Positions 1,291 through 48,150 of a stretch of 64,000 nt of DNA are shown here, one piece after another (position 1 is the stretch's first letter; every line of letters begins with the position of its first letter). The DNA comes from Chiloscyllium plagiosum (Eukaryota). The notes under the pieces were generated by a model that did not search any database, was not told the DNA's origin, and saw nothing but the letters and a program-made list of their open reading frames with translations. The stretch lies in NCBI RefSeq assembly GCF_004010195.1, contig NC_057746.1, positions 9,375,183-9,439,182 on the forward strand. The letters are read 5' to 3'. The position numbers were made by a program, and so were the translations under genes.

Positions 1291-1359
1291 TGCGGTCCCT
1301 GGGTTGCGACAGTGTCGGATCAGTGATGGGGTGTGAGCAAAATGCACTTTGTCACCTAC

Positions 1360-1558
1360 CCTTGACAGCTGCCAGTGGAGGCACCATCTTCTCCAGGTCT
1401 GTCCGGTTTGTCTTGCACGGGCTCCCCTTCTCTCTGCAGGTATCGTCCCGGGGAATTCCCTGCTGCGCTGCAACCCCCACGTTCTCCTTAATATCTGCCC
1501 TACTCCTCTGGACTGCACTGTCAAACCGTCTCTGTCGTGGGAAGCGTTCCCGCTCAGT
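1360..1558 (-). CDS. Exon 4 (last visible) of ZSWIM3-N-like/MULE-transposase-derived gene: TERERFPRQRRFD...DLEKMVPPLAAVK(G)
   Basis: Acceptor ctgacttttag, 66 open codons +1 nt, donor G|gtaggt. The phase 0 start matches the end of exon 4406-4514. A PRQRR-type motif follows the HxH in this family. Confidence 0.8.
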
Positions 1559-1662
1559 CTAAAAGTCAGGGGGAGTTGACATTATGTTAATATTCCTAAA
1601 ACAATGCCTGTATCTGTTGGATATAATAAGATGCCACAGGAATATTATGCAGCAGAAAACCA

Positions 1663-2832
1663 CTGTGTGTGTGTGTCAGTAACAGCACGTCCGAAATCAC
1701 CCGTGTGTGTGTGTGTGTGTGTCCATAACTGCAGGTCCGAGACCCCCCTGTGTGTGTATCAGTAACTGCATGTCCGATCCCCCCTGTGTGTGTCAGTCAC
1801 TGCACGTCCGAGACCCCCTTGTGTGTGTGTGTGTGTGTCAGTAACTGCACGTCCGAGACCCCCCTGTGTGTGTGTGTGTCAGTAACTGCACGTCTGAGAC
1901 TCCCCTGTGTGTGTGTCAGTAACGGCACATCCGAGATCCCCCTGTGTGTGTGTGTCAGTAACTGCACATCCGAGACCTCCTGTGTGTGTGTCAGTAACTG
2001 CACATCCGAGACCCCCATGTGTGTTAGTACACTGCACGTCTGAGACCCCCCTGTGTGTGTGTCACTGCACGTCCGAGACACCCGAGTGTGTCAGTAACTG
2101 CACGTCGGAGACCCCACTGTGTGTGTGAGTCAGTAATTACGTGTCTGAGATCCCCCCTGTGTGTGTCAGTTACTGCACATCCGAGATCCCCCGTGTGTGT
2201 GTGTCAGTAACTGCACGTCCGAGACCCCTCTGGGTGTGTGTGTCAGTAACTGCATGTCCGAGATCCCCCCTGTGTGTGTCAGTAACTGCATGTCCGAGAC
2301 CACCCTGTGTGTGTGCTAGTACCTGCATGTCCGAGACCCCCCTGTGTGTGTGTGTCAGTAACTGCACATCCGAGACCCTCTGTCTGTGTGTCAGTAACTG
2401 CATGTCCGAGATCCCCCCTGTGTGTGTCAGTAACTGCACTTCCGAGACCCCCCTGTGTGTGTGTGTGTGTGTGTGTCAGTAACTGCACGTCCGAGACCCC
2501 CATGTGTGTGGGAGTAACTGCATGTCCGAGACCCCCCCTGTGTGACCGTGTCAGTAACTGTACGTCAGAGACCCCCGTGTGTGTGTGTGTCAGTAACTGC
2601 ATGTCCGAGACCCCCCTGTGTGTGTCAGTAAGTGCACGTCCGAGACCCCTGCGTGTGTGTCAGTAACTGCACGTCCGAGACCCCCCTGTGTGTGTGTCAC
2701 TGCACGTCCGAGACCCCCCTGTGTGTGTCACTGCACGTCCGAGACCCTCCTGTGTGTGTGTCACTGCACGTCCGAGACCCCCCTGTGTGTGTGTCACTGC
2801 ACGTCCGAGACCCCCCTGTGTGCGTGTCACTG
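1663..2832. repeat. ~33-45-bp minisatellite (cagtaactgcacgtccgagacccccc(tg)n)
   Basis: About 30 variant units with variable (TG)n; explains the Cys-rich ORFs 1750-2931. Confidence 0.95.
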
Positions 2833-3145
2833 CTGGTGGAAGGATCAGGAATCAGAGGAAGCTGGTTTGAGGTGATTGGCAAAAGAAGCGATGGTGACAT
2901 GAGGCAATACTTTGACATAGCGAGGGGTTAACATCTCGAATGCACTGCCCGAGAGTGTGACCCAGGCAGACTAAATTATGACTTCCACAAAGGGAATTGG
3001 TTCATCTTCTGAACGGGAAAGAAGTACAGGGAAAAGTTGGGGGAGTTGTGGGACTGAGTTGCTCTTGCAGAGAGCAAACACAGTCACGAAGGATTGAATG
3101 GCCTCCATCTGTGGTTCTTCCCTAACCTGTCTTCTTGACAAGTTA

Positions 3146-3420
3146 AGGCGGCACAGTGGCTCAGTGGTTAGCTCTGCTGCCTCACATCGCCAGGGACCTG
3201 GGCTCAATTCCAGCTTCGGGTGACTCTCTGTGAGGAGTTTATATGTTCTCCCCGTGTCTGCATGGGTTTGCTCCGGTTTCCTCCCACAGCCCAAAGATGT
3301 GCAGGTTAGGTGGATAAGCCTAATGTGGGTTACGGGGAGGTGGGTCCAGGTAGATTGCTCTTCAGAGGGTCAGTTTGGACTCAATGGACTGAATGGCCTG
3401 CTTCCACATGGTAGGGATTC
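3146..3420 (+). mobile_element. HE1/V-SINE-type tRNA-derived SINE
   Basis: Head ggcggcacagtggctcagtggttagc, B-box-like motif and central ctccccgtgtctgc...ttcctcccaca domain, shared with many copies in the window. Confidence 0.85.
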
Positions 3421-3713
3421 TACAAAGTCCTTCATCTCTGGTGCCATTCCAATCAGCCTCTTCTGTGTCCACTATATGTTCATGGTATCTCTCTTGGTGC
3501 CCAGGATCGAACATAATATTCCAGTTCTGAGGAAGAGTCACTCAACCCAAAAGAGTGATTTCTCTCCACAGATGCTGATAGACGTGCCAAGCTTTCCCAG
3601 TAATTTCTGTTTTTGTTTCTGATTTACAGCAACAACAGTTTTTTCCGTTTTTACTTATAATATTCCAGCTAATGCCAGAATAGTTAACCATTTAATAGAA
3701 CTCAATTGTTTGT

Positions 3714-4209
3714 CAACACCAGGTTATAGTCCAACAGGTTTATTTGGAAGCACTAGCCTTTGGAATGCTGCTCCTTTATCAGGTAGCTAATCGGGTAGGA
3801 TCATAGGACACAGAATTTATAATAAAAGATCAAAGTGTCATACAACTGTTGTGATGTGTTGAACAAACCTAGATTTCTGTTAAGTCTTTAATCACTTAGA
3901 ATGGGGATGTAGGTTTGAAATCATTAATATGTAAATGATGTAGATTTACATATTAATGAATCAAATCCTGCAGCCCATTCTAAGTGATTAAAGACCTAAC
4001 AGCAATCTAGGTTTGTTCAATACATTGCATCAGTTGTATGACACTTTGATCTTTTACTCTAAATTCTGTGTCCTATGATCCTACCCGACTAGCTACCTGA
4101 TAAAGGAGCAGCATTCCAAAGCTTCCAAATAAACCTGTTGGACTATAACCTGGGTATTGTGTGAGTTTTAACTATGTCCACCCCAATCCAACAGCGGCAC
4201 CTACACATC
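3714..4209. mobile_element. Palindromic non-autonomous Penelope-like terminal element (~215-bp inverted arms, 7-nt loop)
   Basis: Arms ~3719-3936 and ~3944-4153 are reverse complements. Each carries a degenerate ctgat(a/g)a..gaaa-type motif. A related fragment lies at ~25290-25405. Confidence 0.7.
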
Positions 4210-4405
4210 CTAATTGTTTTTGTATGCTTTCTCAATTTATAAAGTCCCCAATCTTGTGTAACTTTTCGAAACGGCCCTAACTTGGGGAGAGACAGAGACA
4301 CACAAACCAGACAGAGAATGAACAGAAGGGAGTGACTGAATGTGCATCAGTGTTGGTGTCAGGATTTCCACACCAGTGGGAAACCTGCCCGCTGGTTTTA
4401 CTTAC

Positions 4406-4514
4406 CTCTTGTACTGTGTGGTTATGTGATTCGATCATCTCTTTCACCACAAACTTGTCTCCATCTGGAGAGAGGCGAACTTTGATAACGCAGGGACACT
4501 TGGTCTTGTTGGTT
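4406..4514 (-). CDS. Exon 3 of ZSWIM3-N-like gene: (R)TNKTKCPCVIKVRLSPDGDKFVVKEMIESHNHTVQE
   Basis: Acceptor gtctgttgcag, donor GAG|gtaagt. The phase 2 start matches exon 8810-9118. It supplies the C...HxH half of a WRKY/FAR1-like zinc-binding fold. Confidence 0.9.
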
Positions 4515-4804
4515 CTGCAACAGACAAATGCAGCATTGTGTCAGGAGCTATAGGGAGACTGGCTTTCGATTCACTTTTCGCACGGTGCGGTAGAAAGACG
4601 ATTAAATTCCTGTTTACAGCCTTCAAGAGACCCAAAAACTGAACAAAAACGTGGAATGCTCAGGAACTGCTGGTCTGAGTGTTTCTGATCCGAATTTGTA
4701 AGCTTTGTTTTGTTCAAATTTTGTCTTGAACGAACAGACTCTGGGTGGGCATGAGGTTCAGAAGTGCTGATGTGTGTGAACTCAGATAAGATTCCAGGTG
4801 AAGA

Positions 4805-5447
4805 AATAGACAATAGACAATAGGTGCAGGAGTAGGCCATTCTGCCCTTCGAGCCAGCACCACCATTCATTATGATCATGGCTGATCATTCTTCAATCAG
4901 TATACTGTTCCTGCCTTATCCCCATAACCCTTGATCCCACTATCTCTAAGAGCTCTATCCAACGCTTTCTTGAAAGTATCCAGAGACTTGGCCTCCACAG
5001 CCTTCTAGGGCAGAGCATGCCATACACCCACCACTCTCTGGGTGAAGAAGTTTCTCCTCAACTCTGTTCTAAGTGGCCTACCCCGTATTTTTAAACTGTG
5101 TCCTCTGGTTCGGGACTCACCCATCAGCGGAAACATGCTTCCTGCCTCCAGAGTGTCCAATCCTTTAATAATCTTATACGTCTCAATCAGATCCCCTCTC
5201 AGCCTTCTATACTCAAGGGTATACAAGCCCAGTCGCTCCAATCTTTCAGCGTAAGATAGTCCCACCATTCCGAGAATTGACTTCGTGAACCTACGCTGCA
5301 CTCCCTCAATAGCCAGAATGTCTTTCCACAAATTTGGAGGCTAAAACTGCGCACAATATTCCAGGTGCGGTCTCACCAGGGCCCTGTACAGCTGCAGAAG
5401 GACCTCTTTGCTTCTATACTCAATTCCTCTTGTTATGAAGGTCAGCA
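4805..5447 (-). mobile_element. CR1/HER1-type LINE 3' fragment
   Basis: ORF 5005..5331 (VQRRFT...RGDLIETYKI...RTRGHSLK) is the CR1 ORF2 C-terminus; (aatagac)n tail. Confidence 0.92.
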
Positions 5448-6000
5448 TTAAAGACTGGAAAGGGTTCAGACAGGATTCACCAGGACGTTGCCAGGAACAG
5501 ACTGCATGAGTTATAAGGACCGGCTGGGACTCTTTTCACTGGAGGCTGAAGGGTGATATTATAGACGTTTATAAAGTCATGAGGGGTATAGATAAGTTAA
5601 TTGACTGATTGATTTATTGTCACGTGCACCAAGGTACAGTGAAAAGTTTTGTTTACGAGCAGTATAAGCTTTCTCCCTCGGGTGGGGGATTTCAAGACCG
5701 GGGGCATGTTTCCAATGACAGAGGAGAAAGATTAAAGAAAATACATGAGGGACAATTTTTTTTTAAAAGAGTGTGGTTCATATGTGGAATGAACTTTCAG
5801 AGAAAGCAGTGGATGCAGGTACAGTTACAATATTTAAAATATGTTTGGATAAGTACATGAATGAAAAATATTTGGTTGAACATGGGCCAGGAGCAGGCAG
5901 GTTGAACTAGTTTACTTTGGGATTATGATCGGTATGGACTGGGAGGACCGAAGGGTCTGTATCTGTGCTGTATAACTCTCTGACTGTGAGTCTATGACTT
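5448..6000 (+). mobile_element. Degenerate CR1 3' fragment
   Basis: agggttcag...ttcaccaggacgttgcc, catgaggggtatagataag and ctatgact tail. Confidence 0.75.
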
Positions 6001-6022
6001 CAGTGACATGGTTGAAACATGA

Positions 6023-7290
6023 GGCACTGGAAAAGCACAGCAGGTCAGACAGCATCCAAGGAGCAGGAGAATTGAAGTTTCGGGCATAAGCCCTGGAAGG
6101 GGAGATGAGGTAACTGAAGAAATCAACATTGATGCCATGCGATTGGAGGGCTCCAAGGCAGAAGATGAAGCGTTCTTCCTCCCGGCGTCGGGTGGCTAGG
6201 ATTTGATGGTGGAGGAGGCCCAGGACATGCATGTCCTTGGCAGTGTGGGAGGGTGGGTTGAAGTGGTCAGCCACAGAGTGGTGGGGTTGTTCAGTGCATG
6301 TGTCCCAGAGATGTTCTCTGAAACATTCTGCAAGTTGGTGTCCTGTCTCCCCAATGTAGATGAGCCCACATCAACAGCAATGGACACAGTAAGTGAGATG
6401 TTTGGATGTGCAGGAAAATCTCTGATGGATATGGAAGGACCCTTTGGGGCCTTTGATGCAGGTGAGGGGGGAGATGTGGGCGCAGGTTTTACACCTCGTG
6501 CAGTGGCAAGGGAAGGTGCCGGGAGTGGAGGGTGGGTTGGTAGGGGGCATGGACCTAATGAGGGAGTCGCGGAGGGAATGGTCTCTGCGGAATGCAGATA
6601 GGAGTGTGCAGGGAAATACATCTTTCATGGTGAGGTCTGACTATAGGTGGTGGAAATGGCGGAGAATGATGCGCTGTATCTGGAGGTTATTCAGGTGGAA
6701 GGTGAGGACCAAGGGGGCTCTGCCCTCAGAGGGGTGGGGTTCAAGGGCGGAGTGTGCAAAGTGGAGGAGATGTGCTGGAGGGCATTTTTGACCACGTGGG
6801 AGGGGAAATTCCAGTCCTTGAAATCGGAGGCCACCTGGAATGTTTTGAAGTGGGACTGGTCCTCCTGGGAGCAGATGCTGCAGTGGCAGAGGAATTGGGA
6901 ATAGGGGATAGCATTTTTGCAGGAGGCAGGGTAGGAGGAGGTGTAATCCGGGTAGCGGGGGAGGAGGAGGAGGAGCTGGAGTCCAGGTAGCTGTGGGAGT
7001 CGGTGGGTTTCAAGTAGATGCCAGTGTTGAGTCAGTCACCAGAAATGGAGATGGAGAGGTCCAGGAAGTGGAGCGAGGTGTCTGAGATGGTCCAGGTGAC
7101 CTTGAGGTCAGGGTGGAAGGTGTTTGTGAAGTTGATGAACGGTTCAACCTCCTCGTGGGAGCACAAGGTGACACTGACACAGTCATCGATGTAGCGGAGG
7201 AAAAGGTGGGGAATGGTGCCGGTGTAACTGCGGAAGAGGGACTGTTCCACACATCTGCCCAAGTGGCAGGCACAGCTGGGGCCCATGCCT
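6023..7290 (-). mobile_element. Penelope-like retroelement fragment (RT C-terminus + GIY-YIG endonuclease), frameshifted
   Basis: ORF pieces FLRYIDD, FLDLSISI, KPTDSHSYLD, CKTCAHI, HFNPPSH; Penelope-type terminus at 6023-6095. Confidence 0.9.
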
Positions 7291-7874
7291 ACGTTGCAAA
7301 AGCTCGGGTCATTCTTCGGAAAGAGAAGGAACAGAGGAGATTCAAAAGAGGAAGTTGAAATTCATCAGGCGGTCCGCACAAAGTGGAGAGGGCTGAGAAT
7401 GAGACAGCACAGATTTACGACGACTGACAAAAGACTCAAAGGTGACATGGGGTTAATCCTTTGTTTTAAAAAACACAGTGAGTGTTTACGTTTCAGAATG
7501 CACTGCCTGAGAGTGAAGTTAAAGCTGACATCATTGTGGTCTTTAAACGAGGATTTGAGAATTGAAGAGAACTTTTCTTGCAGGAGTACAAAGGAAGGGA
7601 GTTGGACTAGGTGAGTTAATCTTGCAGACAGCCAGCGCAGGCTTGACAAGCCAAAGACTTTCCCTCTATGTGGTAACCATCATCCGGGTCTGTCAGTCAG
7701 GCCACAGCCAAATAAAGTGCAGTACCTGTGCAGACATGGACACGAATTTAGCCTGACAGCTAGAATCAGCTTTTCCAGCCCTATTCTGGATTTCTCAAAC
7801 CACTGTGTGGTTATTTCTTATTTGAGGCGTGGTCGGTAGTTTAGTGTTGAAATTACCAACTTAAGCAGAGGAAG

Positions 7875-8190
7875 CTCCCACAAACAGGAGTGCAGGGAAA
7901 GGCCAGATCATCGAGGTGGGTTAGGGGATAACTTGGGTCCAGGAGGCCGAGGCTAATTCTCTCGCTTGCTGAAATGACACAGTATTTTCCATCCACCTGC
8001 AAAGGCAATGGGGCCTCTGTTTCTCATCTGATCCAAAAAGACAGCGCCTTCAACAGAGCAGCATTGATAACTGCATTGGAGTTGATTGCTCCCTGATAAC
8101 TGCATTGGAGTTGAAGCTTCAGTCAGGATTTCAGTCCAAATCTCTGGAGTGGACGCTTAACCCCATCTGCCTCAGAGGCAAACATGCCAC
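7875..8190 (-). mobile_element. Old, degenerate DeuSINE (SacSINE1/AmnSINE-like) copy
   Basis: Resemblance from memory (gggcctctgtttctcatctgatccaaaaagacagc, tctctggagtggac); not aligned. Confidence 0.45.
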
Positions 8191-8809
8191 GTACTAGCTA
8201 GGGCCAGTCTGTAATGGCTCTTTGGGCCCTGCATGTTCTGCTTGGCTGAGAGTTGGCAGGCGGGTGGAAGTGGATGGGCACGTCGCTCTTAGAGGGAAGT
8301 CCGAGAACGGTGGCTCCCACTTCACTAACAGAACACGAGAGTGCAGAGCAGGCCATTCAGCCCATTGAACCTGCATCTCCGATAGTTCTAGCCAGTTAGT
8401 TCCAATGCACAACTCTTTCCTCGTGACCCCAAACATTTCCTTCACCTTTAAGTACCTTTGCCTTATCCACATTTCCTTAGAAAGCGATCAATTGCATCTG
8501 TTTTCATCAACGTTTCAGGAAACCACTCCAGAATAAGTTGCACAACTATTTTCCCCATGACCCGGAACTTTTCTCTTGACTTTCAAACTGCCATCCATGT
8601 TCCTTCAGAAAGAGACCGAATACATCTGCTTTCGCCACCCTTTCAGGACACCTAGCCCAAACTGGGATGAATCGCCGTGTTAAATACACTCCAAGCGGGC
8701 CTATGGTGTGGGTTGTGGGGTTACAGAGCGACAGCAGGAGAACCAACTCAGGTGGAGTCAGCCGAAGACTCCTCCCACCCTGTACCAAGGCAGAGACCAC
8801 CCTCCTCAC

Positions 8810-9118
8810 CTCTGGTTTGTCCGCTTTCCGGTGCCTTTCGCCCTGAAGAGTTTGCCCCCGTGGATGCAGGCATAGTCGATCTCGGCGAACCTCAGCGCGT
8901 CGTTCATGGGCCGTTTGGGCGCCCTCCGCCTCTGCGCCTCGATGGTGCGTGAGTGCCTGGTCCAGAGCTGCACGGCGCAGTCCCTCTGGTAGCGGCGGAA
9001 CTCCCGGTGCAGCTCGCTGTACGACGAGAACTCCGCTCCCACTCGGAACCCCACCGTCTGGGACATGGCCATACGTCCCCCACCCACCCCTCTCTCCCCG
9101 GCAACCAGGGAGCGGGAC
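8810..9118 (-). CDS. Exon 2 of ZSWIM3-N-like gene: ...MAMSQTVGFRVGAEFSSYSELHREFRRYQRDCAVQLWTRHSRTIEAQRRRAPKRPMNDALRFAEIDYACIHGGKLFRAKGTGKRTNQ(R)
   Basis: Acceptor ttttttttttcacag, donor AG|gtgagg, open frame, GC/CpG-rich. In-frame ATGs at 9072 and 9066. The GxxFxSYxEL / YxCIHGG / KGTGxRxNQ pattern is that of MULE-transposase N-terminal (ZSWIM3-N-like) domains. Confidence 0.9.
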
Positions 9119-9803
9119 CTGTGAAAAAAAAAACCACACAGGGCAACAGGTCAGGGGGCCGGAACCCTGGAGAATGTGGGTGTGGGAGGGATCTGTCATG
9201 GATTGCACGTCTTAACTGCTGCCGTCAGATCGCAGTGGGTTTTCAGAACAGCTGAGATACGGACCCCTGGCAACAGGCAAGGGGTGAGCAACCCTCCCAG
9301 CTTGTTCTGAAGCCTCAGCGAAGATTCACCTCCACAAACCAGCAGCAGTGAGCTACCCAAAGACGCAAGCGCCTCGATGGTGCGTGAGTGCCTGGTCCAG
9401 AGCTGCACGGCGCAGTCCCTCTGGTAGCGGCGGAACTCCCGGTGCAGCTCGCTGTACGACGAGAACTCCGCTCCCACTCGGAACCCCACCGTCTGGGACA
9501 TGGCCATACGTCCCCCACCCCCCCCTCTCTCCCCGGCAACCAGGGAGCGGGACCTGTGAAAAAAAAACACACAGGGCAACAGGTCAGGGGGCTGGAACCC
9601 TGGAGAATGTGGGTGTGGGAGGGATCTGTCATGGATTGCACGTCTTAACTGCTGCCGTCAGATCGCAGTGGGTTTTCAGAACAGCTGAGATACGGACCCC
9701 TGGCAACAGGCAAGGGGTGAGCAACCCTCCCAGCTTGTTCTGAAGCCTCAGCGAAGATTCACCTCCACAAACCAGCAGCAGTGAGCTACCCAAAGACGCA
9801 AGC
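8934..9803. repeat. Tandem duplication (~435 bp; 8934-9368 / 9369-9803) including the 5' part of exon 2 and its splice acceptor
   Basis: Direct comparison shows only a few differences; gc microhomology at the junction. Confidence 0.92.
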
Positions 9804-10104
9804 AGAGGGGTGTAGAGCAAAACGATCGGGTTTTCAAAACAACTTGCCCTTTTGCTCATGGTAGTGTGTGAAACGTTAGTTGGGGGTAGCCAGCATTGTG
9901 GAGTCACCGTGATCTAACTGAATAGCCCCAGTGGCCCATTCCTGATTTTGAAGCATGACCCAGGAGCCTGGGGTGATGAGGGACAGGAGAAACTTCCAGG
10001 GTGTTTCCGCATGGATCAGGAACACAGACACTCTCAGGGGCTGCTAATGTTGAAGCGGGAGTGCAGAATCACTTGGGACCATCTACAAAGTGTCCACCTA
10101 CAGT

Positions 10105-10420
10105 TTCAGAGTTTAGAACGCCCACAGTGTGGAAGCAGGCCAGTCAGCCCCTCTGAAGACCATCCTGCCCAGACCCACCACCCCCTGTAACCCTGCAATT
10201 CTCACGGTTAGTCCATCTCGCCTGCATATCCCTGGACACCATGGCCAATCCACCCTTGCCTGCATATCTTTGGACTGTGGGAAGAAACCACAGCACCCGG
10301 AGGAAACCCACGCAGATCACAGGGAGAATGTGAGAACTCCACATGGACAGTTGCCTGAGGCTGGAAGTGAACGCGGGTCCCTGGTGCTGTGAGATGGCAG
10401 TGCTAACCACTGAGCCACCC
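10105..10420 (-). mobile_element. HE1/V-SINE-type SINE
   Basis: Reverse complement of SINE head (gtgctaaccactgagccacc) and central domain. Confidence 0.8.
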
Positions 10421-10964
10421 CCAGATCTAGGATCCAGATGCCGGCCGATTGTTCCAAACAGTGAATGTAAAGTTACACCGAGCAGAGAGTGAGACAAACC
10501 TTATTAATGCAGCAGCTACTACTCGGTTCGGCTGGCCTTGTCAGGCAGTCAGTGACCTTTGTCATGTAGCTCAAAAGCCATCAGCATTGAGGACGCAGGA
10601 AGTGAGATTTCTGTTGGAAAACAATGAAAAGTATCAAAGCTCTATCTGTACAACAGAGTAAAGTTCACACTGGGCCTACAGCTCAGGAACAAGCCATTAA
10701 ATCATGCCACACTGATCGTCCACACAAACCATCTCCCATTCCTCTTCATCACATGCAAACAACATAATCTTTTATTCCTTTCTCCCTCTTGTGCTCTTTC
10801 AGCTTCTCCTTAAATGTCTACAAACTGTGCTCTTGTGTTAAATCACAAACGGATCAACCCCACTCTCCCTCGTTGTATGTCTGGCAGGATTTGAACCAGA
10901 GTCACTGGGATTCCAGACTGAGTCGAGCAAAAGTACCACTCAGCCACCTCCTCCTGTTTTTCCT

Positions 10965-11530
10965 GCATGTCCACTCACCTCATCTACCGTGCCCGTTGCT
11001 CTAGATATGGGCTCCTCTACATCGGGCCAACTCAGGGAGCATTTCAGGGAACATCTCTGGGACACACGCACCCAACAACCCCACCGCCCCGTGGCCGACT
11101 ACTTCAACTCTCCCTCCCACTCCGGTAAGGACATGCAAGTCCTGGGCCTCCTCCACCGCCAACTCAAAGCCACCCAACAACTGGAGAAAGAACGCTTGAT
11201 CTTCCGCCTTGGCACCCTTCAACCACATGATATCAACACTGACCTCACTGATTTCCAAATTTCCCCTCCACCCCCCCCCAGATCCAACCCTCCAGCCTAG
11301 CACCACCTGTCCTACCTGTCCATCGTCCTTCCCACCTATCCACTCCACCCTCCCCACTGACCTATCACAATCACCCCTCCACCTGAGTTCACTTATCGCC
11401 TTCTCAGCTACCCTCCTCCCAACCCCACCCCAAACCCTGAATAATCTCTCAGCCCCGTTCCCTCCCTCCACATTCCTGGTCCTCGGATCCTGCTGGACCG
11501 GCTGTGCTTTTCCAGCGCCACACTTTCCAA
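10965..11530 (+). mobile_element. Penelope-like element 3' fragment (GIY-YIG region)
   Basis: ORF 10989..11300: FREHLWDTR...VADYFNSPSH...LIFRLGTLQP. Confidence 0.85.
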
Positions 11531-13550
11531 CTCATCGCCTTCTGATGCCACATTGTAACGTCTCCCTGGGTGAACAGGTTCTCCTGAACACCCTCATGAT
11601 TATATTGTTGGCTCCTAGTTTAAGACTCTACCCCACCCCATCTGCCAACACACCCCATTCCAGCAGACATGTTTGTTGACTGAAGAGGCAGGTATATCCG
11701 ATATTACATGATTAGAGTTACCGGATCTTACCCCAATAGGAGGCCAGAAAAGTCTCAGTGTAGGCTGTGAAGCCTGGCAAAAGTTCCAATCACAGCCCAC
11801 GTGTCTCGTCTATGTATAGACTGTGCCTTTTGGGAGACCAGAGGACATTCTAAGTTAAACAACAGTGGAATGCAACACTGGTAAAATGGCCGAATTCAAA
11901 GCATGGAAACAGGCCATTCCCAATCGGTCCATGCCAATGCTCACAGGATTTACCAGCCAGCTGATTCCTTTCCCACTCGCATCCCATGCCCTGCATGGTA
12001 CAGCACTGTTAATTGGCAACGTTAATACATGATAAAATTAATTTATCACAAAGAAAACACAAAGCCATACAGCATAGAAACAGGCCCTTTGGCCCACCTC
12101 ATCTATGCCAGCCAACCAACAAATGCCAAACTGTATTAATCCCATTTACCTGCAGTTGGTCCACCGAACTGAACCAACATGTCGGCTAAGATGCCCTCTA
12201 GTATAAAATCCAGTACCGCAGAAACAGACTACTTGGTCCTTCAGGCCTGTAGCAGCCCTTCAAAAGGGTCATCCCATTCCCGCCTCCTCCTTCTTGAGTT
12301 CTCTTCCTTAACATTGGTCTGACCCACTGGTCAACCCCAAGAAGTCTGAGTTGCTGTGGCAACGCGGATCTTTTACAGGCATGTTTTAACCTGCCGCTCT
12401 GAACTGTGATGATAGAGGCTTCAATTTTCTTCCTGTCATACAGCTGACCAGGAATCTCTCCAACTCTTAAATCCCTACCATCGGCCTATGTAGTAAGGAT
12501 TTGCCGGCTCATATCCAACCTGTTTGGTCACATTATGAATTGTTCTTGGCCATCAGGTCCTGGCCTGGGACTTGAAACTCGGGTTTCTAGCTCCAAGGAA
12601 AGGATGCTACCCACTGCCCCACGAGACCTTCTCCCTGCGGTTCAGCTAAATATTTCTCTTTAAATACATGCCCAACTGCCTTTAAAAATCCCTCCAGAAT
12701 CTGCTCCCAATCACATGCAGTTAGGACATGTCAGAGCTCAGCAAACCTCTATGGGAATACATTTCCCATTTTCTGTCTGGTTCATTTACGAACTACTTTC
12801 AAACTAAGGTCTCTGGCTACTGCTCCACTTGACAGAAGAAATCGCTTCTCCGGATTTGCTCTGTGCAAACACCTCAGAATTCTGACGGCCACTATCAATC
12901 CTCTGCTTAAATCCGTCTCTTGAAGGAGAGCGTACAAATCAGGAACAAGCCGTTCAGCTGCAATAATAAATTTGTGGTTGATGGGTCTACCCCATTCTCT
13001 TTGCTTTCATTGTTAACCAAAACTCTGTCTAACTTGGCCTCACAAATATTCAGTGACTCAGTCCCCACTGGTCTCTGGGGAAGAGAATTACACAGAATAA
13101 TTACCCACTGAGACAAATCGTTAAACAAGTATATAAATACTTCACCTCATCATTGTCTTAAATAAAATTTGTAAAATCATGAGGGGTATAGATAAGGTTA
13201 ATAGCAGGTGTCTTTTCCCTTGGATGGGGGATTTCAAGACTAGGGGTGTATTTATAAGGTGAGAAGAGAAGGATTTCAAAAAGACATGAGGGGCAATTTC
13301 TATTTTACACACAGAGTGCTTCACGTGTGGCATGAACTTCCAGTGGTGGATGCGGGTACAGTGACAACGCTTTAAAGATAAACTACATAAATAAGACATG
13401 TTCGGAGGGACACAGGCCAAGTGCAGGCAGGTGGTACGAATTTGGGATTATAGTCAGCAAGGACTGGTTTGTCCCACGGTTCTGTTTCCGTCTCTATGCC
13501 TCTATCCCTAATTTTTAAAATGTTTCCCATACTTCTCATAAGGATGATGT

Positions 13551-14946
13551 GCAGGTTAGGTGAATTGGCCATGCTAAATTGCCCACAGTGTTCAGGGATG
13601 TGTAAGTTAGGTACATTAGTCAGGGGTAAATGTAGAGGAACAGGGTAGGGGAATGGGTTTGGGTGGGATACTCTTCGGGACGGTGTGGACTTGTTGGGCT
13701 GAAGGGCCTGTTTCCACACTGTAGGAATTCTATGAACATCCTCTGAGCAAATCCATTGCCAATTCCCCTCAGGTTGTTACATGTTTCAAAAAAATCACTT
13801 CTCATACTGCGGAACTCTAAGAGACCAGAAGAGACCTAGCTTCTCCATTCTCTCCATATAACTCAAGCTCCACATACCTCACACCATCCTTGGAAATCTC
13901 CTCGGCACCTGTCTGATCATATTGATATCCCTCCTAAAGTACGGTGTCCAGAACTGCACATAATGCTCCAGTCGAGACAATATACACTGACATGAATTTG
14001 CAAAATAAAAAAAAAATATGTCAAAGATTGGGGCCCCAGGAGCTGTCACTTGGAAGGAAAAGGATACCTGACCTGGTAAAACTAGACAGAGTTGACTTGA
14101 AAATTCATTCACGGTGGCTCAGTGGTTAGCACTGCTGCCTCTCAGCGCCAGGGACCCAGGTTCAATTCCAGCCTCAGGCGACTGTCTGAGTGGAGTTTGC
14201 ACGTTCTCCCCATGTCTGCGTGGGTTTCCTCCCACAATCCAAAGGCATGCAGGTTAGGTGAATTGGCCATGCTAAATTGCCCACAGTGTTCAGGGATGTG
14301 TAAGTTAGGTACATTAGTCAGGGGTAAATGTAGAGGAACAGGGTAGGGGAATGGGTTTGGGTGGGATACTCTTCGGGACGGTGTGGACTTGTTGGGCTGA
14401 AGGGCCTGTTTCCACACTGTAGGAATTCTATGAACATCCTCTGAGCAAATCCATTGCCAATTCCCCTCAGGTTGTTACATGTTTCAAAAAAATCACTTCT
14501 CATACTGCGGAACTCTAAGAGACCAGAAGAGACCTAGCTTCTCCATTCTCTCCATATAACTCAAGCTCCACATACCTCACACCATCCTTGGAAATCTCCT
14601 CGGCACCTGTCTGATCATATTGATATCCCTCCTAAAGTACGGTGTCCAGAACTGCACATAATGCTCCAGTCGAGACAATATACACTGACATGAATTTGCA
14701 AAATAAAAAAAAAATATGTCAAAGATTGGGGCCCCAGGAGCTGTCACTTGGAAGGAAAAGGATACCTGACCTGGTAAAACTAGACAGAGTTTACTTGAAA
14801 ATTCATTCACGGTGGCTCAGTGGTTAGCACTGTTGCCTCCCAGCGCCAGGGACCCAGGTTCAATTCCAGCCTCAGGCGACTGTCTGTGTGGAGTTTGCAC
14901 GTTCTCCCCGTGTCTGCGTGTGTTTCCTCCCACAATCCAAAGGCAT
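13551..14946. repeat. 698-bp tandem duplication bounded by SINE sequence (13551-14248 / 14249-14946)
   Basis: Constant 698 offset; duplicated ORFs 13879/14577 and 13944/14642; about 6 substitutions clustered at the 3' end. Confidence 0.93.
14110..14430 (+). mobile_element. HE1/V-SINE-type SINE (junction/hybrid copy)
   Basis: Head matches the copy at 14809; tail matches the copy at 13551-13730. Confidence 0.85.
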
Positions 14947-15115
14947 GCAGGTTAGGTGAATTGGCCATGCTAAATTGCCCACAGTGTTCAGGGATGTGCA
15001 AGTTGGGTGCATTAGTCAGCGGTAAATGGGAAATGGGTCCGTCTGGGATATTCTTCGGAAGGTCAGTGTGGGCTTGCTGGGTCGAAGTGCCTGTTTCCAC
15101 GCTGAAGGGATTCTG
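14809..15115 (+). mobile_element. HE1/V-SINE-type SINE
   Basis: Head, central domain and tail present. Confidence 0.88.
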
Positions 15116-15154
15116 AGATTCCCGCGCTTTTAATGCAGTTAGTTATCCTCAAGA

Positions 15155-15560
15155 CTTTTTCTCATTGGAGCATAGGAGGTTGAGGAGTGATCTTCTCGAA
15201 GTTTATAAAATCATGAGGGAGATCAATAGATAAGGTGAATGGCAGGTGTCTTTTCCCCAGGTTTGGGGGATGTCAAGACTGGGGGAATAGTTTTAAGGTG
15301 AGAGGAGAAAGATAAAAAAAAAAATTGGCAGCAATTTGGTTTTTCATGTGTTCACATGTGGAATGAACTTCCAGAGGAAGCGGTGAATGTGGGTACAGTT
15401 AGAACGTTTAAAAGACATTTGGATAAGTACATGAATAGAAAAGATTTGGAGGGAGATGGGCCAAGCCCAGGCCAGGTGGGACTAGTTTAGTTTGGCATTA
15501 CAATTGACATGGACTTGTTGAACTGAAGGGCCTGTTTCCGTGCTATATGGCTCTATAAGT
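15155..15560 (+). mobile_element. CR1 3' fragment
   Basis: gtttataaaatcatgagggg...tttaaggtgagaggagaaa...gaagggcctgtttccgtgct. Confidence 0.8.
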
Positions 15561-16069
15561 AGAAGTACTTCACTGGAAGGGCATACAGAATCTGAACCAA
15601 GCCAAATGAGGAGATGTTAGGCTAGGTGACCAAAAGCTTAAACAAAAGGGAAGACTTTAAGTAGAATTTTAAAGGAAGAGCAAAGCAAAAAGATTCTGGA
15701 GGGAATTCAAGGTAATTAGAGGCTCGGCAGCCAAAGCATGTCCGGCAATGGGCAAAAGAATTAAAAGTAAGGGATGTGGGGAATGGGTTTGGGTGAGATA
15801 CTCTTCGGAGGGTCAGTGTGGACTTGTTGGGCTGAAGGGCCTATTTCCACATTGTAGGGATTCTAAGATTACCACAACTACCTTCTAAGTAGTCCACAAT
15901 AACAGGTCAGATATTGCTGGGACGGAAGCATTAAAAGGGCGAAGACAGGTAAGGCCGTGGGTGGATTTTAAAACAAAGATGAGATTAACCAAGAATAAAG
16001 AACCCCAATCACAGGGATGATTGGGGAATGGAACATGGTGCAAGTTAAGGTGCATGAAGCTGAGTTACA

Positions 16070-16735
16070 GAGATATACAGATGTACAGCACAGAAACAGC
16101 CCCTTCAGATCCTACATGTCCATGACGACCAGATATCCTAAATTAATCAGGTCCATTTGCCAGCATTTGGCCCACATCCCTCTCAATCCTTCCTATTCAT
16201 GTGCCACTGCCCCACGAGACCTTCTGTCTGTGGTTCAGCTAAATATTTTTCTTTAAGTACATGTCCAACTGCCTTTAAATCTCCCTCCAGAATCTACTTC
16301 CAATCACACGCAGTTAGGATATGTCGGATCACAGCAAACCTCTTTGGGAATACATTTCCCATTATCTGTCTGGTTCATCTACTAACTACTTTCAAACTAA
16401 GGCCTCTGGCTACTGCTCCACTTGACAGAAAAAATAGTTTCTCCAGATTTGTTCTGTGCAAACACCTCAGAATTCTGACGGCCACTATCAATCCTCTGCT
16501 TAAATCCATCTCTTTAAGGAGAGCGTACAAATCAGGAATGAGCCATTCAGCTTCACTGTCAAATTTGATGCCTTTGAGATGTTGTATTTGTACCAGCCTC
16601 CACCACTTCCTCTGGTGGCTTGTTCCATACACACACCACCCTCTGTGTGAAAGAATTGCTGCTGAGGTCCCTTTTAAACCTTTCCCCTCTCACCTTAAAT
16701 TTATGCCCTATAGTTTTGGACTCCCCTTCTCTGAG
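16070..16735 (-). mobile_element. CR1 3' fragment interrupted by a copy of local sequence 12611-12955
   Basis: CR1 tail at 16070-16200 resumes at ~16580; the insert matches 12611-12955 with scattered substitutions. Confidence 0.7.
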
Positions 16736-17097
16736 ATGATCTGAAGTTTACAAAAGGTGGAATGAGGGAAGCAGAGAAAGAGAGCACAGAAGTGTACAGT
16801 ACCTTCGCACTTGAGACAGTTGACTCTTAACTGTCTTCCAAAGTGACCTGGCAGGTTAGCCAGTTCAAGGGGGCTGGTTAAGTGTGGGGCTTGCCAGAAT
16901 GCTCACATCCTATGAAAGATCAAAGAACAGAAAAGAAACGTGGTTATATTACTGGGTTAGTAATATATCCTGCTTTCACACTAAGCATACCTTTTCATCA
17001 TGTTGTCTGGCACTAACACACTGCCAAATGATCCACAGCACTAATGATACTCCAAACAGGGAATCTACGAGGTGCAGTGGACCGTCAGCAGCAATAC

Positions 17098-17405
17098 AAT
17101 TTAGATTACTTACAGTGTGGAAACAGGCCCTTCGGCCCAACAAGTCCACACCGACCCACCGAAGAGCAACCCACCCAGACCCATTCCCCTACATTTACCC
17201 CTTCACCTAACACTACAGGCAATTTAGCGTGGCCAATTCACCTCACCTGCACATCTTTGGACTGCGGAAGGAAACCGGTGCACCCGGAGGAGACACGGGG
17301 AGAATGTGTAAACTCCACACAGTCAGTTGCCTGAGGCGGGAATTGAACTCAGGTCTCTGGCGCTGTGAGGCAGCAGTGCTAACCACTGTGCCACCGTGCT
17401 GCCCA
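17098..17405 (-). mobile_element. HE1/V-SINE-type SINE
   Basis: Near full-length reverse copy with ttagat tail. Confidence 0.9.
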
Positions 17406-18895
17406 CATTTCTGTTCAACATTATTATGAGGAACTCCAGCAGTGATATCCTACAGCTGAAATGAATAGGACTTCAACATCTATCTACATCTTACTCTGTG
17501 TTTGGTATGACTCTCCTGAATTCAGCCGAGGTATTCTTAACTAAGCTGTTCAGAAATGTCATGGTATAACACATCTTTGGAGCAGGTGGGATTGAACCTA
17601 GTTCAGAGGCAGGGTCAGTACCAGTGTGCTACAACAGCCCCAAACACTGATATCAGGTTAAGTCTTGCTACAGGGCAGAAGTCAACCTACACTTGGAGAA
17701 CTGTGTGCAATTCTGATCTCCTTACCTAAAGAGTGATATTAATTTTCTAATCAACCATTTCAGAGACATGTTATTCCAAACTTCTGGAGCAGGTGGAAGT
17801 TGGATCGAGCCTCCTGACTCAAAGGTAGAAACACTACCACTGTGCTATAAGTGCCAACAGGACTGATATCAGGGTGCTGTATGAGGTCAAACCATTTTCA
17901 GCTGCTTCATTAATGGTTCCCCAAAGCTTCTGGATGTAGGTTTGCTAGCTGAGCTGGAAGGTTCAGTTTCAGATTTTTCGTCACCATACTCAGTGAGCCT
18001 CCGGATGAAGCATTGGTGCTATGGTCCAGTTTTCATTTATGTGATTAGGTTTCCTTAGGTTGGTGATGACATTTCCTGTGGTGATGTAATTTCCTATGAT
18101 GATGTCCACAAAGCTTGCTCATCATCTGGAGGAACAAGTCAGGAGTGTGATGGAATGCTCACCACTTGTCTGAATGAGTGCAGCTCCAATAACACTCATC
18201 AAGCTCAACAACACCCAGCACAAAGCTGCCTGCTTGATTGGCACCCAACCCATTTCTTTCAACATTCAGTCCCTTCAAAACTAATGCACAATGACAGCAA
18301 AGCATACCACCTCCAGAGTACACTGCAGCAAGACTTGTCCAACAGTAAACTATAGCATCACCTCCCTGAAAGGACAAGGGCAATAGATGCTCCAAACAAT
18401 ACCACTTGCAAGTTCCCCTCCAATCTACACACCATCCTAATTTGAACAATGTTATTGTTCCTTTAAGTCCTAGAATTCCCTTATACATTCCTCACATTTC
18501 TCCAGCAGCTGAGTTGAACTTCAAGATCTGTGCTAGCTGCTGTTGGAGAAACTGGAAGTAAAAGAGTGGGGATCAGCAAATGCGGACCCTCAGAGCATTT
18601 CTGAGGCTGCAGCCGTTGACTCCTTCCCTTCAGCACTGTAGGTATATCTGTAATGCAAGGATCAAGATGGGGGTTCACCATCATCTTCACACGGGCAATC
18701 AGAGAGAGATAATAAGTGTTGGTATTGCTGTCAGTATTCACTCCCAAGGATAAATCAGAAAACAGCCTCATGCCTAAGTCAGCTTTTTGCTCAAGATATT
18801 CAGAAACTTCACTCCCCTTCTCATTACCTGTAACCTTCCATTTCTTTCCCTCCAAATTTTTATCTGATTCTCTTTTGAAAGTTATTATTGAATCT

Positions 18896-19210
18896 GGGTG
18901 GCATGGTGCCTCAGTGGTTAGCACTGCTGCCTCACAGCATGAGGGTCCCAGGTTCAATTCCTGCCTCAGGCAACTGTCTTTTTGGAGTTTGCAGATTCTC
19001 CCCGTGTCTGCTTTGGTTTCCTCTGGGTGCTCCGGTTTCCTCCCACATGTGCAGGTTAGGTGAATTGGTCATATTAATTTGCCCATATTGTTAGGCGCAT
19101 TAGTCAGGGGTAAATATAGGGAAATGGGTCTGTGAGGATTACTCTCTGGAGGGTCGGTGTAGACTTGCTGGGCCGAAGGGCCTGTATCCACATGTAGGGA
19201 ACCTAATCTA
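18896..19210 (+). mobile_element. HE1/V-SINE-type SINE
   Basis: Head, central domain and tail present. Confidence 0.88.
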
Positions 19211-19329
19211 TTTTCAAATCCCCCTGGTATTGTGATTGAGTGAGCAGCAAACATCTGGGACTTATTGGAAATATTTGGGATGGAGAGGGGGAACGGACAA
19301 TATCAGGAAATGGGGGAGGGAGAATGGAG

Positions 19330-20065
19330 CAATTCAGTTCTTGGAGCAAGGGTATAATCTCTGGGTTTGGATTAGAGGAATCCTTAGAGTTTGAATCAGG
19401 ATGAATCCATGCAATTAGAACCAGGAGGAATTGCTGTGATTCTGATCAGGAATAATCACTGGAATTGTGATCAGAAAGATTCTTTGAGTTCAGGATGGGA
19501 TTTGGATCAGGAGGCATCTCTGGGTTGGAGGTAAAAAAAATGACTGCAGATGCTGGAAACCAGATTCTGGATTAGTGGTGCTGGAAGAGCACAGCAGTTC
19601 AGGCAGCATCGAAATCGACGTTTTGGGTAAAAGCCCTTCATCAGGTTTTATTCCTGATGAAGGACTTTTGCCCGAAACGTCGATTTCGCTGCTCCTTGGA
19701 TGCTGCCTGAACTGCTGTGCTCTTCCAGCACCACTAATCCAGAATCCCTGGGTTGGAATCAATATGGAATTGGAATCCGGATGGTGCTGAGATCAGGAGG
19801 GACCTCTGGAATTGGAATCAGGAATGAATTGGGGATCAGGAGGGATATATGAAGTTGGCACAGGAGGATTGGGACCGGGATCAGGAATGTTGACAGGGTT
19901 GGGGAGTGATCTCTCGCTTTAAGACTAGGAGGGATCTAGGATCAGGAGGAATCCAGCGGATTGGAATCAGGAAAAAATCTTCGGGATTGTGATCAAAAGG
20001 GATCTGGGATTGGGACCAGGAGGAATCTAAGGGATTGTGATCAGGAGGGATCCAGGGTTGGGATA
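19330..20065. repeat. Degenerate purine-rich tandem repeat (ggattgggatcaggagg-like)
   Basis: Recurrent atcagga / gggatt motifs. Confidence 0.65.
19530..19747. mobile_element. Palindromic Penelope-terminus mini-element with two opposed hammerhead-like cores
   Basis: Arms ~19563-19645 and ~19653-19746 are inverted. CTGATGA..GAAACGTC at 19654-19681. Flanked by ctgggttgga (19520-19529 and 19748-19757). Confidence 0.8.
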
Positions 20066-20099
20066 TGAATGGATCCCTGGGTTTGGGACTGTCTGTTTT

Positions 20100-20960
20100 C
20101 CGGGTGTGTGCAGCTCTGTGCTGGGAGGCGGGAGATGAGCCACCGTCTCTTTACCCGGGCCCAGTTAGCGGATCGGCCTCCCACCGGGCCGACCAGCCCG
20201 CCAATCCAGTTACCTACCGCCCTTCGGCTCTCTTTCTTCCATCTGGGGTCCGGGTGGCGGGGGGAGGCCTCCCGCTCTCCAGTAACAATTCAAGCGCCCT
20301 CCTCAACGGCCGGCCGCCGGCACATCCCACGCATGCGCTTGTTGTCACCGCCAGGCGCCGGCACGTCTCGCACATGCGTACTTCCCCAAGGTTGGTCGCC
20401 GGCACGTCTCGCACATGCGCCCTCGTCCACTGCCGGCCGACTGCCGCTCCCGCACAGGCGCTCTCCTTCAATGCCGGCCGCTGACAGCTTGTGCACACGC
20501 GCTCTCGTGTACTACCGGCCCCCGGTCACCTTCTGCTCATGCGTCCTTGTCTACTGCCGGCAGCCGGCACCTGCCGCATTTGCGCGCTGTGCCGCACCTC
20601 CTGCGGAGGAAGGGGTGGGGGGGTGGAGCAGTTTCAAAGGCGCAGAGATCTCTGGGATATCGAGTGGCCATGACTGGTGCCTGGACACCGACTTTCGCGC
20701 CACAGAATTAGCAGAAACTGCGGCGTTGGAAGTGAACAGAAATGGCTAGAGATAACTGTCTGAGGTTCATTTCCAAGATTTCAAGCAACAAAGGAAAGCG
20801 AGTGAACTCTTGCAGGGTTTCAGGTACGAAAACGTGGAAATTGAAGAGTCAGTATTGACCGAATGGCGCGTCCTGTGCTCCGGGGACTATGTGAGATCGA
20901 ATATTCGAAGCAGAATCAGAAATCCGGCACTTTGATGAATTCCAGGCGCGGACCCAGCAT
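20100..20960. promoter_or_regulatory. CpG island / candidate promoter with 41-bp-periodic NRF1-like (GCGCATGCGC-like) sites
   Basis: Most CpG-dense non-exonic block in the window. Motifs cgcatgcgc, cgcacatgcg (x2), cgcacaggcg, tgcacacgcg, tgctcatgcg, cgcatttgcg. Confidence 0.75.
20214..20242 (-). CDS. Candidate first coding exon of ZSWIM3-N-like gene (MEEREPKGG-R)
   Basis: ATG at 20242 at the edge of the CpG island. Donor AG|gtaact is phase 2 and joins in frame to the exon starting at 9118. It could instead be 5'UTR. Confidence 0.5.
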
Positions 20961-42136: not shown

Positions 42137-42188
42137 ATGCTGCTTGTTACTTTACTGCACGTTTACTGTGTGTTCATAGTCTCCTCAG
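42137..42188 (+). CDS. MHC class I heavy chain, exon 1 (signal peptide MLLVTLLHVYCVFIVSS)
   Basis: acaacATG context, 17 hydrophobic codons ending V-S-S, strong phase 1 donor G|gtaagc matching the alpha1 exon. Not in the ORF track. Confidence 0.78.
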
Positions 42189-44654: not shown

Positions 44655-44957
44655 CAATTACTTACAGTATGGAAACAGGCCCTTCAGCCCAACAAGTCCA
44701 CACCGACCCTCTGAAGAGCAACCCACCCAGACCCATTCCCCTATATTTAGCCCTTCGTCTAACACTACGGGAAATTGAGCATAGCCAATTCACTTAACCG
44801 GCACATTTTTGGACTGTAGGAGGAAACCAGAGCAAACCCACGCAGATATGGGGAGAATGTGCAAACTTCACACAGACAGTTACCTGAGGCGGGTATTGAA
44901 CCCAGGTCTCTGGTGCTGTGAGGCAACAGTGCTAACCACTGTGCCACCGTGCTGCCC
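44655..44957 (-). mobile_element. HE1/V-SINE-type SINE
   Basis: Near full-length reverse copy. Confidence 0.88.
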
Positions 44958-47964: not shown

Positions 47965-48150
47965 GATTAGATTAGATTAAATTCCCTACAGTAGGGAAAC
48001 AAGCTCTTCGGCCCAACAAGTCCCTATCGACCCTCCAAAGAGTAACCCACCCAGACCCATTCCACTATCCTATATTTACCTCTGACTAAAGCACCAAACA
48101 CTATGGGCAACTTAGCATGGCCAATTCATCTGACCCGCACATCTTTGGAT
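47965..48150 (-). mobile_element. SINE 3' fragment
   Basis: (attag)n tail plus 3' half of HE1-type SINE. Confidence 0.8.

What the first reader, a model, noticed from the sequence alone, without database searches (positions are those of the whole stretch)
1360..20242. Spliced, apparently domesticated Mutator-like (MULE) transposase-derived gene divergent from the MHC class I gene
Seen: exons 9118-8810, 4514-4406 and 1558-1360 have canonical splice sites, compatible phases (2, 0, 1) and no stops. They give GAEFSSYSEL...YACIHGG...KGTGKRTNQRTNKTKCPCVIKVRL...ESHNH...FPRQRR. The introns are kb-sized and filled with old TEs and minisatellites, and a CpG island offers an in-frame first exon. Only one of these exons is visible in the ORF track. 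Known: this C...C...HxH domain is the FAR1/WRKY-GCM-type DNA-binding domain at the N-terminus of MULE transposases and of ZSWIM3/ZSWIM9-type host genes. Inference: a host-captured transposase gene whose sequence looks to me closer to invertebrate MULEs than to mammalian ZSWIM3/9, possibly a chondrichthyan-specific domestication linked to an MHC locus. A DDE/SWIM region, if present, lies left of the window.
Basis: partly seen in the sequence, partly recalled or inferred. Interest (0 to 1): 0.7.

Follow-up and report, generated by a model that had tools for sequence, protein, structure and literature searches.

The report
Shark-and-ray gene tamed from Mutator transposon
Sharks and rays share a spliced gene descended from a Mutator-type jumping-gene enzyme that has lost an essential cutting residue but kept its DNA-binding finger almost unchanged, so it likely now acts as a gene regulator; it sits among immune (MHC class I) genes and likely arose independently of the similar ZSWIM genes of land vertebrates.

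Summary
Real gene, observation confirmed. The three exons belong to a 670-aa protein that NCBI auto-names 'ZSWIM1-like'; three more exons left of the window carry the MULE RNase H domain and a SWIM finger. The gene is single-locus here, has no flanking inverted repeats and has orthologues in 19 named sharks and rays; none was found in chimaeras. The second catalytic Asp is lost in 20 of 20 orthologues, while the WRKY-GCM1/FAR1-type finger is 82-99% identical. Its nearest relatives are DDE-intact transposases of invertebrates and teleosts. A clade with ZSWIM9 is rejected (AU p=0.0002). ZSWIM1/3 orthology is unlikely but was not tested by tree. At least one intron was probably inherited from the transposon, so splicing alone does not show domestication. 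It lies among class I loci of the MHC chromosome, about 21 kb head-to-head with a non-classical class I gene; no functional link is shown. One skate has amplified it. Verdict: a new member of a known kind, not found in eight literature searches.

The parts
20100..20600 (-). CpG island, likely promoter and first exon (donors at 20218 or 20214); its ATG at 20242 would be an upstream ORF in the transcripts seen
   Evidence: contigs of X1 and X16 join it to the next exon; stops in the relevant frames
8934..9803 (.). 433-bp tandem duplication; the upstream copy (about 9551-9369) is a truncated exon without donor; young duplication or assembly artefact
   Evidence: 431 of 433 identical, one 2-base indel; no depth in four runs, which do not cover the adjoining intron either, so undecided
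8810..9118 (-). first coding exon (ATG 9072), N-terminal half of the WRKY-GCM1/FAR1-type zinc finger (C69)
4406..4514 (-). coding exon 2, rest of the finger (C94, H118, H120)
1360..1558 (-). coding exon 3, poorly conserved linker
1..1359 (-). start of the intron leading out of the window to three further coding exons: G000:C37:9372401-9371966 (MULE RNase H domain: D228, lost second Asp S291, C312xxH315), 9361271-9360343 (helical insertion, E405, SWIM finger C510/C512/C522/H524, C-terminal helices) and 9357211-9357135 (last exon, stop)
   Evidence: (the six-exon model reproduces P0002 exactly)
42137..56047 (+). neighbouring non-classical MHC class I-like gene (candidate leader 42137; alpha1 in ORF 49674-50039; alpha2 about 52457-52723; alpha3 in ORF 55646-56047); context, not part of the gene
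   Evidence: UGA-like by eye against the alignments in the supplement of PMC10751288

Best explanation
This is a spliced, conserved shark-and-ray gene derived from a Mutator-like transposase that has lost its second catalytic aspartate, and it likely works as a sequence-specific DNA-binding regulator of transcription, likely captured once in the common ancestor of sharks and rays and independently of tetrapod ZSWIM1/3/9. Shown: gene structure, splicing, single locus in this genome, orthologues across sharks and rays, loss of the DDE triad, strongest conservation in the N-terminal zinc finger. Inferred: an intron-containing MULE was immobilised in the MHC region and lost its ends and catalysis. 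The C-C-H-H finger with its basic insert binds DNA, while the dead RNase H fold, SWIM finger and C-terminal helices serve as a scaffold for protein partners, as in plant FHY3/FAR1 and yeast Aft1/2. No target or partner is known.
For: The six-exon model equals P0002; splice joins in two runs. Exon 1 has 2 matches among 5 candidates in the genome, both at this locus; the nearest transposase P0019 finds only this gene (3 matches); no low-copy inverted pair flanks the gene. Orthologues form a 100/100 clade with rays, skates and carpet sharks each grouped. D2 is lost in 20 of 20 orthologues, E is Q in 8 of 8 batoids and D1 is G in 3 of 3 skates, whereas 114 of 127 other relatives keep D2 and 98 keep all three. 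Invariant columns: finger 73 of 115, linker 13 of 67. All 5 listed nucleotide differences in the finger exons are synonymous, against 2 of 6 in the linker. Model pLDDT 83.8; best fold match ISCth4 Mutator-family transposase (Z 12.9, rmsd 5.5, 236 aligned); the profile also hits yeast Aft2 over the finger (E 0.0036). A clade with ZSWIM9 is rejected, p-AU 0.00017. PF19286 is absent from all five orthologues scanned and PF21600 is absent or below cut-off; none of the 148 nearest non-elasmobranch clusters carries PF19286.
Against: No tetrapod ZSWIM1 or ZSWIM3 sequence was in the tree, and no other ZSWIM1/3/9 candidate was found in this genome (absence not shown), so this gene could be their diverged counterpart. 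The sister group is unresolved (84/90, open) and a clade with amphioxus P0021 is not rejected (p-AU 0.09). DNA binding and regulation rest on family analogy only; the fold search did not test the finger by itself. No codon-level dN/dS across species; only 6 of 8 linker differences were listed. Rhinoraja has many near-identical copies, so single copy is not universal. The runs are coded and their RNA status is a guess; the raw-read RNA run X19 (about 2 in 100 read, polyA) showed no depth on the exons.
Confidence: 0.62

Rival explanations
1. It is the elasmobranch orthologue of tetrapod ZSWIM3/ZSWIM1 from a single jawed-vertebrate domestication; it looks transposon-like only because shark genes evolve slowly.
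For: Same domain order (PF21599, PF21056, SWIM); NCBI names; no other ZSWIM1/3 candidate found in the genome.
Against: Intact-looking transposases score as high or higher on PF21056 (128 against 104 bits), so the name carries no orthology. The ZSWIM1/3-specific C-terminal and helical families are missing. No true ZSWIM1/3 among the 148 nearest clusters. The ZSWIM1 cluster ranks 16th, score 0.84, in the Atlas. ZSWIM1 is intronless (PMC10236294, section 17); this gene has five coding introns.
Confidence: 0.17
2. It is a domesticated transposon repressor: the finger still binds the ends of related MULEs or their non-autonomous derivatives and the dead enzyme blocks or silences them.
For: Whole transposase architecture kept with a broken active site; MULE copies exist in the genome (66 matches of 99 candidates); amplification in a skate would suit an arms race.
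Against: No copy of the cognate family was found (stricter first look). The 19 other MULE loci fetched give no tblastn hit with this protein; 17 are one FLYWCH-type family. The finger is nearly frozen rather than fast-evolving.
Confidence: 0.15
3. It is an active or recently active transposon, or a RAG-like catalytic recombinase acting in the MHC.
For: D228 and E405 are kept in 12 of 12 shark-type sequences and CxxH in 20 of 20; skate copies are 96-99% identical.
Against: D2 lost in 20 of 20; single locus; no TIR; gene span about 38 kb; vertical tree; the most amplified lineage has lost all three catalytic residues.
Confidence: 0.03

Closest known systems
Plant FHY3/FAR1 (FRS) and yeast Aft1/Aft2 (MULE-derived transcription factors)
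   Same: WRKY-GCM1-type finger with a basic insert between the cysteines, from a MULE transposase; FHY3/FAR1 also keep the transposase and SWIM parts (PMC1702500 passages; PMC13306707 abstract start; Aft2 hit).
   Different: Separate capture in a vertebrate lineage; no target known here.
Tetrapod ZSWIM3/ZSWIM1
   Same: Domain order and Pfam PF21599/PF21056; source of the automatic name.
   Different: No PF19286 and PF21600 below cut-off; five coding introns against intronless ZSWIM1; more distant than 148 other clusters; orthology not tested on a tree.
ZSWIM9 (DUF5575 family)
   Same: MULE-derived finger plus RNase H module.
   Different: DUF5575 score 17.7 bits against 526 for turtle ZSWIM9; common clade rejected.
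Animal MULE transposases with SWIM (and often PHD) fingers: Nymphon KAG1650979, Patella KAK6169865, Priapulus, teleosts Gouania and Gymnothorax
   Same: Nearest sequences (31-40% identity), same finger motif, probably the same intron before residue 191.
   Different: Most keep D-D-E; many keep the 'KD(L/I)xN' linker motif (39 of 71) and a GRP hook (24 of 148), both absent from 12 of 12 elasmobranch proteins. Whether each is an active element was not checked.
ISCth4 (IS256/Mutator family) transposase, PDB 6XG8/6XGX
   Same: RNase H core with helical insertion (Z 12.9; Foldseek E 1e-7).
   Different: Bacterial, active, different DNA-binding region.

Membership tests
MULE transposase descent | MULE RNase H domain with helical insertion and CxxH | tested here: met
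   PF10551 48.9 bits over cut-off 27.6; C312/H315 in 20 of 20; fold match to ISCth4
MULE transposase descent | N-terminal WRKY-GCM1/FAR1-type C-C-H-H finger with basic insert | tested here: met
   PF21599 59.3 bits; C69, C94, H118, H120 and a 24-residue insert with 8 K/R; Aft2 hit. Fold not searched separately
MULE transposase descent | C-terminal SWIM finger | tested here: met
   CxC...CxH ligands invariant in 20 of 20; the Pfam SWIM score itself is below cut-off
Active MULE transposon | Intact DDE triad | tested here: not met
   D2 is S, G or T in 20 of 20
Active MULE transposon | Terminal inverted repeats and 8-11 bp target-site duplication (PMC6446971 passages) | tested here: not met
   No low-copy inverted pair within about 25 kb beyond either gene end; TSD cannot be sought without ends; non-TIR MULEs exist
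Active MULE transposon | Dispersed copies | tested here: not met
   One locus in G000 (counts are lower bounds); skate copies lie largely on one chromosome
Domesticated transposase gene | Orthologues in distant species, vertical descent | tested here: met
   19 named species plus one unnamed protein; tree
Domesticated transposase gene | Purifying selection | tested here: met
   Finger 82-99% identical against linker 34-85%; 5 of 5 listed finger substitutions synonymous; no formal dN/dS
Domesticated transposase gene | Transcribed and spliced | tested here: met
   Joined contigs in 2 of 4 runs laid; RNA status of these runs is the tool's guess
Domesticated transposase gene | Conserved genomic position | tested here: inconclusive
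   Catshark orthologue is on a 163,470,629-base contig; the MHC chromosome 13 list ends at 163,380,576: a match by length only; flanking genes not compared
ZSWIM9 (DUF5575) | DUF5575 domains at family-level scores; common clade | tested here: not met
ZSWIM1/ZSWIM3 | PF21600 helical and PF19286 C-terminal domains | tested here: not met
   0 of 5 orthologues reach either cut-off
ZSWIM1/ZSWIM3 | Common clade and synteny with tetrapod ZSWIM1/3 | not testable with these tools
   No search returned a true ZSWIM1/3 sequence
Transcription factor | Sequence-specific DNA binding and effect on transcription | not testable with these tools
   inferred from family only

The most novel reading that the evidence does not exclude
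An elasmobranch-only transcription factor tamed from a Mutator element has stayed inside the MHC class Ib region since sharks and rays split, expands there by birth-and-death along with class Ib genes (many copies in a skate) and regulates MHC or other immune genes: a second transposase recruited into jawed-vertebrate adaptive immunity, on the regulatory side.
Probability: 0.08. Interest if true: 0.8.

Novelty: new member of a known kind. Interest (0 to 1): 0.42.

Why it matters
A 2019 survey still asked whether MULEs are absent from vertebrates (PMC6446971, passage). Here one MULE lineage gave sharks and rays a conserved gene, apparently separate from ZSWIM1/3/9, which makes MULE capture in vertebrates recurrent and shows the database name 'ZSWIM1-like' to be misleading. 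The stepwise loss of D, then E, then D along the shark-ray-skate tree is a clean record of an active site decaying under domestication. The position among class I genes and the skate expansion give a testable, but unproven, link to immunity. The kind of event (MULE to regulator) is well known from plants, yeasts and invertebrates.

Tried and rejected
Active transposon: rejected (triad, copy number, no TIR). ZSWIM9 orthology: rejected by AU test (23 rows, quick LG+G4 tree); a first attempt with the mixture model did not finish. Shared bidirectional promoter with class I: about 21 kb apart, not supported. First fold with 12 sequences failed (pLDDT 37.6); the 143-row alignment worked. Homodimer prediction of residues 175-645 gave no verdict (score 0.28, mark 0.32). 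No RNA holder was listed as such by the run search. Searches of G000 for PF17738, PF19286 and PF21600 were blank (0 of 4, 17 and 31 candidates), but the controls rang nowhere, so absence is not shown. No chimaera or bony-fish orthologue (weak; only 19 of the 148 nearest clusters were looked up by name). 'SWIM' does not occur in the main text or supplement of PMC10751288; most genes there are bare LOC numbers, so the orthologue could not be placed among its neighbours. A GC3-based ORF screen of 464 kb found no recognisable non-repeat neighbours. Two look-ups of earlier scan notes returned nothing. Literature searches listed no paper on this gene.
Full report
Observation. The three minus-strand exons are present as described, with AG/GT ends, phases 2, 0, 1 and no stops. 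The first scores over the cut-off on PF21599 ZSWIM3_N and the second completes that profile and matches FAR1. A protein search with the first exon returned 13 proteins of 28 candidates: 12 named from sharks and rays, 1 unnamed. One, P0002 (670 aa, named 'ZSWIM1-like', Chiloscyllium plagiosum), is identical. With 200 kb fetched to the left, a six-exon model (9072-8810, 4514-4406, 1558-1360, then C37:9372401-9371966, 9361271-9360343, 9357211-9357135) reproduces P0002 exactly.

Transcript. Four runs were laid on 1290-14000. One contig in X1 and one in X16 join 10612-10500, 9118-8810, 4514-4406 and 1558-1360 in contiguous record coordinates (the 109-base exon is not listed for X16 but fits its gap). 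X18 has a contig spanning exactly 8810-9118. The raw-read RNA run X19 (about 2 in 100 read) had no depth on the exons. Most orthologues start at MSQ or a close variant, so 9072/9066 is the likely start. A 433-bp tandem duplication (8934-9803; 431 of 433 identical) copies the acceptor and 47 codons; the reads cannot say whether it is real.

Anatomy. Pfam gives ZSWIM3_N (11-120), ZSWIM1-3_RNaseH-like (190-308) and MULE (224-317) over their cut-offs. A model from a 143-row alignment has mean pLDDT 83.8, with a disordered linker at about 140-174. Its best matches are the Mutator-family transposase ISCth4 (E 1.2e-7; Z 12.9, rmsd 5.5, 236 aligned) and Hermes. The alignment profile also hits yeast Aft2 over the finger (E 0.0036). 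The finger has C69, C94, H118, H120 and a 24-residue insert with 8 K/R, the layout described for the FAR1/Aft group, in which the acidic triad follows strands 1 and 4 and the helix after the insertion (PMC1702500, passages).

Catalysis is lost. Among 127 non-elasmobranch relatives with at least 250 aligned core residues (32 of 175 proteins dropped as too short), 116, 114 and 111 keep D1, D2 and E, and 98 keep all three. Among 20 orthologues (19 named species, one unnamed), D2 is S, G or T in 20 of 20, E is Q in 8 of 8 batoids, and D1 is G in 3 of 3 skates; CxxH and the SWIM ligands are invariant. The transposon linker motif (39 of 71 relatives) and GRP hook (24 of 148) are missing in 12 of 12.

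Host-gene behaviour. In G000 the first exon has 2 matches of 5 candidates, both at this locus; PF21599 has 1 of 14 and PF21056 2 of 11, the second a weak fragment on C2. The nearest transposase finds only this gene (stricter first look). No low-copy inverted pair flanks it. Identity to P0002 is 82-99% in the finger, 34-85% in the linker and 61-91% in the RNase H domain over 11 orthologues; invariant columns are 73 of 115, 13 of 67 and 61 of 145. All 5 distinct listed substitutions in the first coding exon are synonymous; 4 of the 6 listed (of 8) in the linker exon change the residue. This is not a formal dN/dS.

Origin. Of 3154 cluster representatives at E up to 0.001, the best 150 were seen; 148 are not elasmobranch. 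Nineteen were looked up. The six nearest are from Nymphon, Gouania, Branchiostoma, Patella, Gymnothorax and Priapulus; turtle ZSWIM9 and two amphibian DUF5575 proteins come far lower; 8 had no name. None of the 148 has PF19286 and 2 have a weak PF21600 match, so no true ZSWIM1/3 is among them. These transposase-like proteins score as high on the 'ZSWIM1-3' profiles as the shark protein, which explains the automatic name. In a 68-row tree (12 orthologues, 53 other rows from ranks up to P0075, 3 DUF5575 modules) the orthologues are one 100/100 clade on a long stem, loosely (84/90) beside teleost and sea-spider transposases, with ZSWIM9 behind starred branches. A clade with ZSWIM9 is rejected (p-AU 0.00017); one with amphioxus P0021 is not (0.09). 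The Atlas ranks a ZSWIM1 cluster 16th at 0.84, and ZSWIM1 is intronless (PMC10236294, section 17). Against this, no ZSWIM1/3 sequence was in any tree and no other ZSWIM1/3/9 candidate was found in the genome (controls silent), so orthology to ZSWIM1/3 keeps about one chance in six. No chimaera protein appeared; this is weak evidence.

Introns. Twenty-three predicted relatives begin shortly before the residue matching D191. In 19 a Gly stands at or next to that position, after a short leader poor in charged residues (K/E/D/R 0.07 against 0.29) and richer in Phe (0.14 against 0.04), as translated splice acceptors are. I infer that the phase-1 intron here was already in the transposon family. The same test at codon 88 was uninformative (6 cases, no difference). 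Splicing therefore does not by itself show capture.

MHC context. Class I matches lie on both sides (C37 at 9.006, 9.125-9.157, 9.428 and 9.492 Mb), among many on C37. The neighbour has alpha1, alpha2 and alpha3 exons on the plus strand and a candidate leader at 42137, about 21 kb from the CpG island. By eye it resembles the non-classical UGA sequences in the supplement of PMC10751288. That paper places all elasmobranch class Ib genes in the MHC (section 9) and does not mention a SWIM gene. The catshark orthologue lies on a contig whose length fits its MHC chromosome 13; that chromosome is large and the match is by length only. Rhinoraja longicauda has a cluster of 24 records (15 listed, 9 of them on one chromosome; 11 full-length ones 96-99% identical); Amblyraja and Leucoraja have at least two loci each and a double-finger form. 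Tandem duplication is likely but was not shown, and some records may be assembly haplotypes.

Mechanism and verdict. Most likely a DNA-binding regulator whose dead RNase H fold and SWIM finger serve as scaffold, by analogy with FHY3/FAR1 and Aft1/2; repeated capture of FHY3-type genes in invertebrates, amphioxus included, is reported (PMC10027918, passages). No target, partner or immune role is shown. Eight literature searches listed no paper on this gene; subscription journals and bioRxiv supplements were not seen. Papers seen: PMC10751288 (passages, section 9, supplement parts 1, 15, 18 and searches), PMC10236294 (passages, section 17), PMC6446971, PMC10027918, PMC1702500 (passages), PMC13306707 (listing and abstract start). 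It is an annotated but mislabelled and apparently undescribed gene: a new member of a known kind, interest 0.42.

Noticed in passing
Rhinoraja longicauda, Amblyraja radiata, Leucoraja erinacea records: Skates have amplified the gene (24 records in one Rhinoraja cluster; double-finger forms in two others), in the lineage that has lost all three catalytic residues.
   Followed up: partly
G000, 66 PF10551 matches; L026-L045: A dispersed FLYWCH-type MULE family (17 of 19 fetched loci, median about 91% nucleotide identity, many with stops), unrelated to this gene, shows MULEs in a vertebrate genome.
   Followed up: partly
window 8934-9803: Near-perfect 433-bp tandem duplication creating a truncated decoy exon; real or assembly artefact undecided.
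   Followed up: partly
window 42137-56047 (+): Non-classical MHC class I-like gene, UGA-like by eye, in a local cluster of class I loci.
   Followed up: partly
P0021 (Branchiostoma): Amphioxus relative conserved in three records, lacking the linker motif and CxxH but keeping D-D-E: possibly a parallel domestication; a shared origin is not rejected.
   Followed up: partly
P0119, P0132, P0161 (caecilian, axolotl, turtle): ZSWIM9-type proteins built of 2 to 7 tandem finger-plus-RNase H modules.
   Followed up: no
G000:C2:146781421-146781642 (L024): Weak isolated PF21056 fragment that keeps a D2-like motif; transposon remnant or exon of another gene.
   Followed up: partly
about 134 kb and 151 kb left of the window: Two degenerate histone H3-like fragments (label recalled from the peptide).
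   Followed up: no
window 1-1287, 1664-2833, 50407-51058; N run just left of base 1: Minisatellite arrays (30-, 41- and 33-bp units) and a 1.6-kb assembly gap inside the intron after exon 1558-1360.
   Followed up: no
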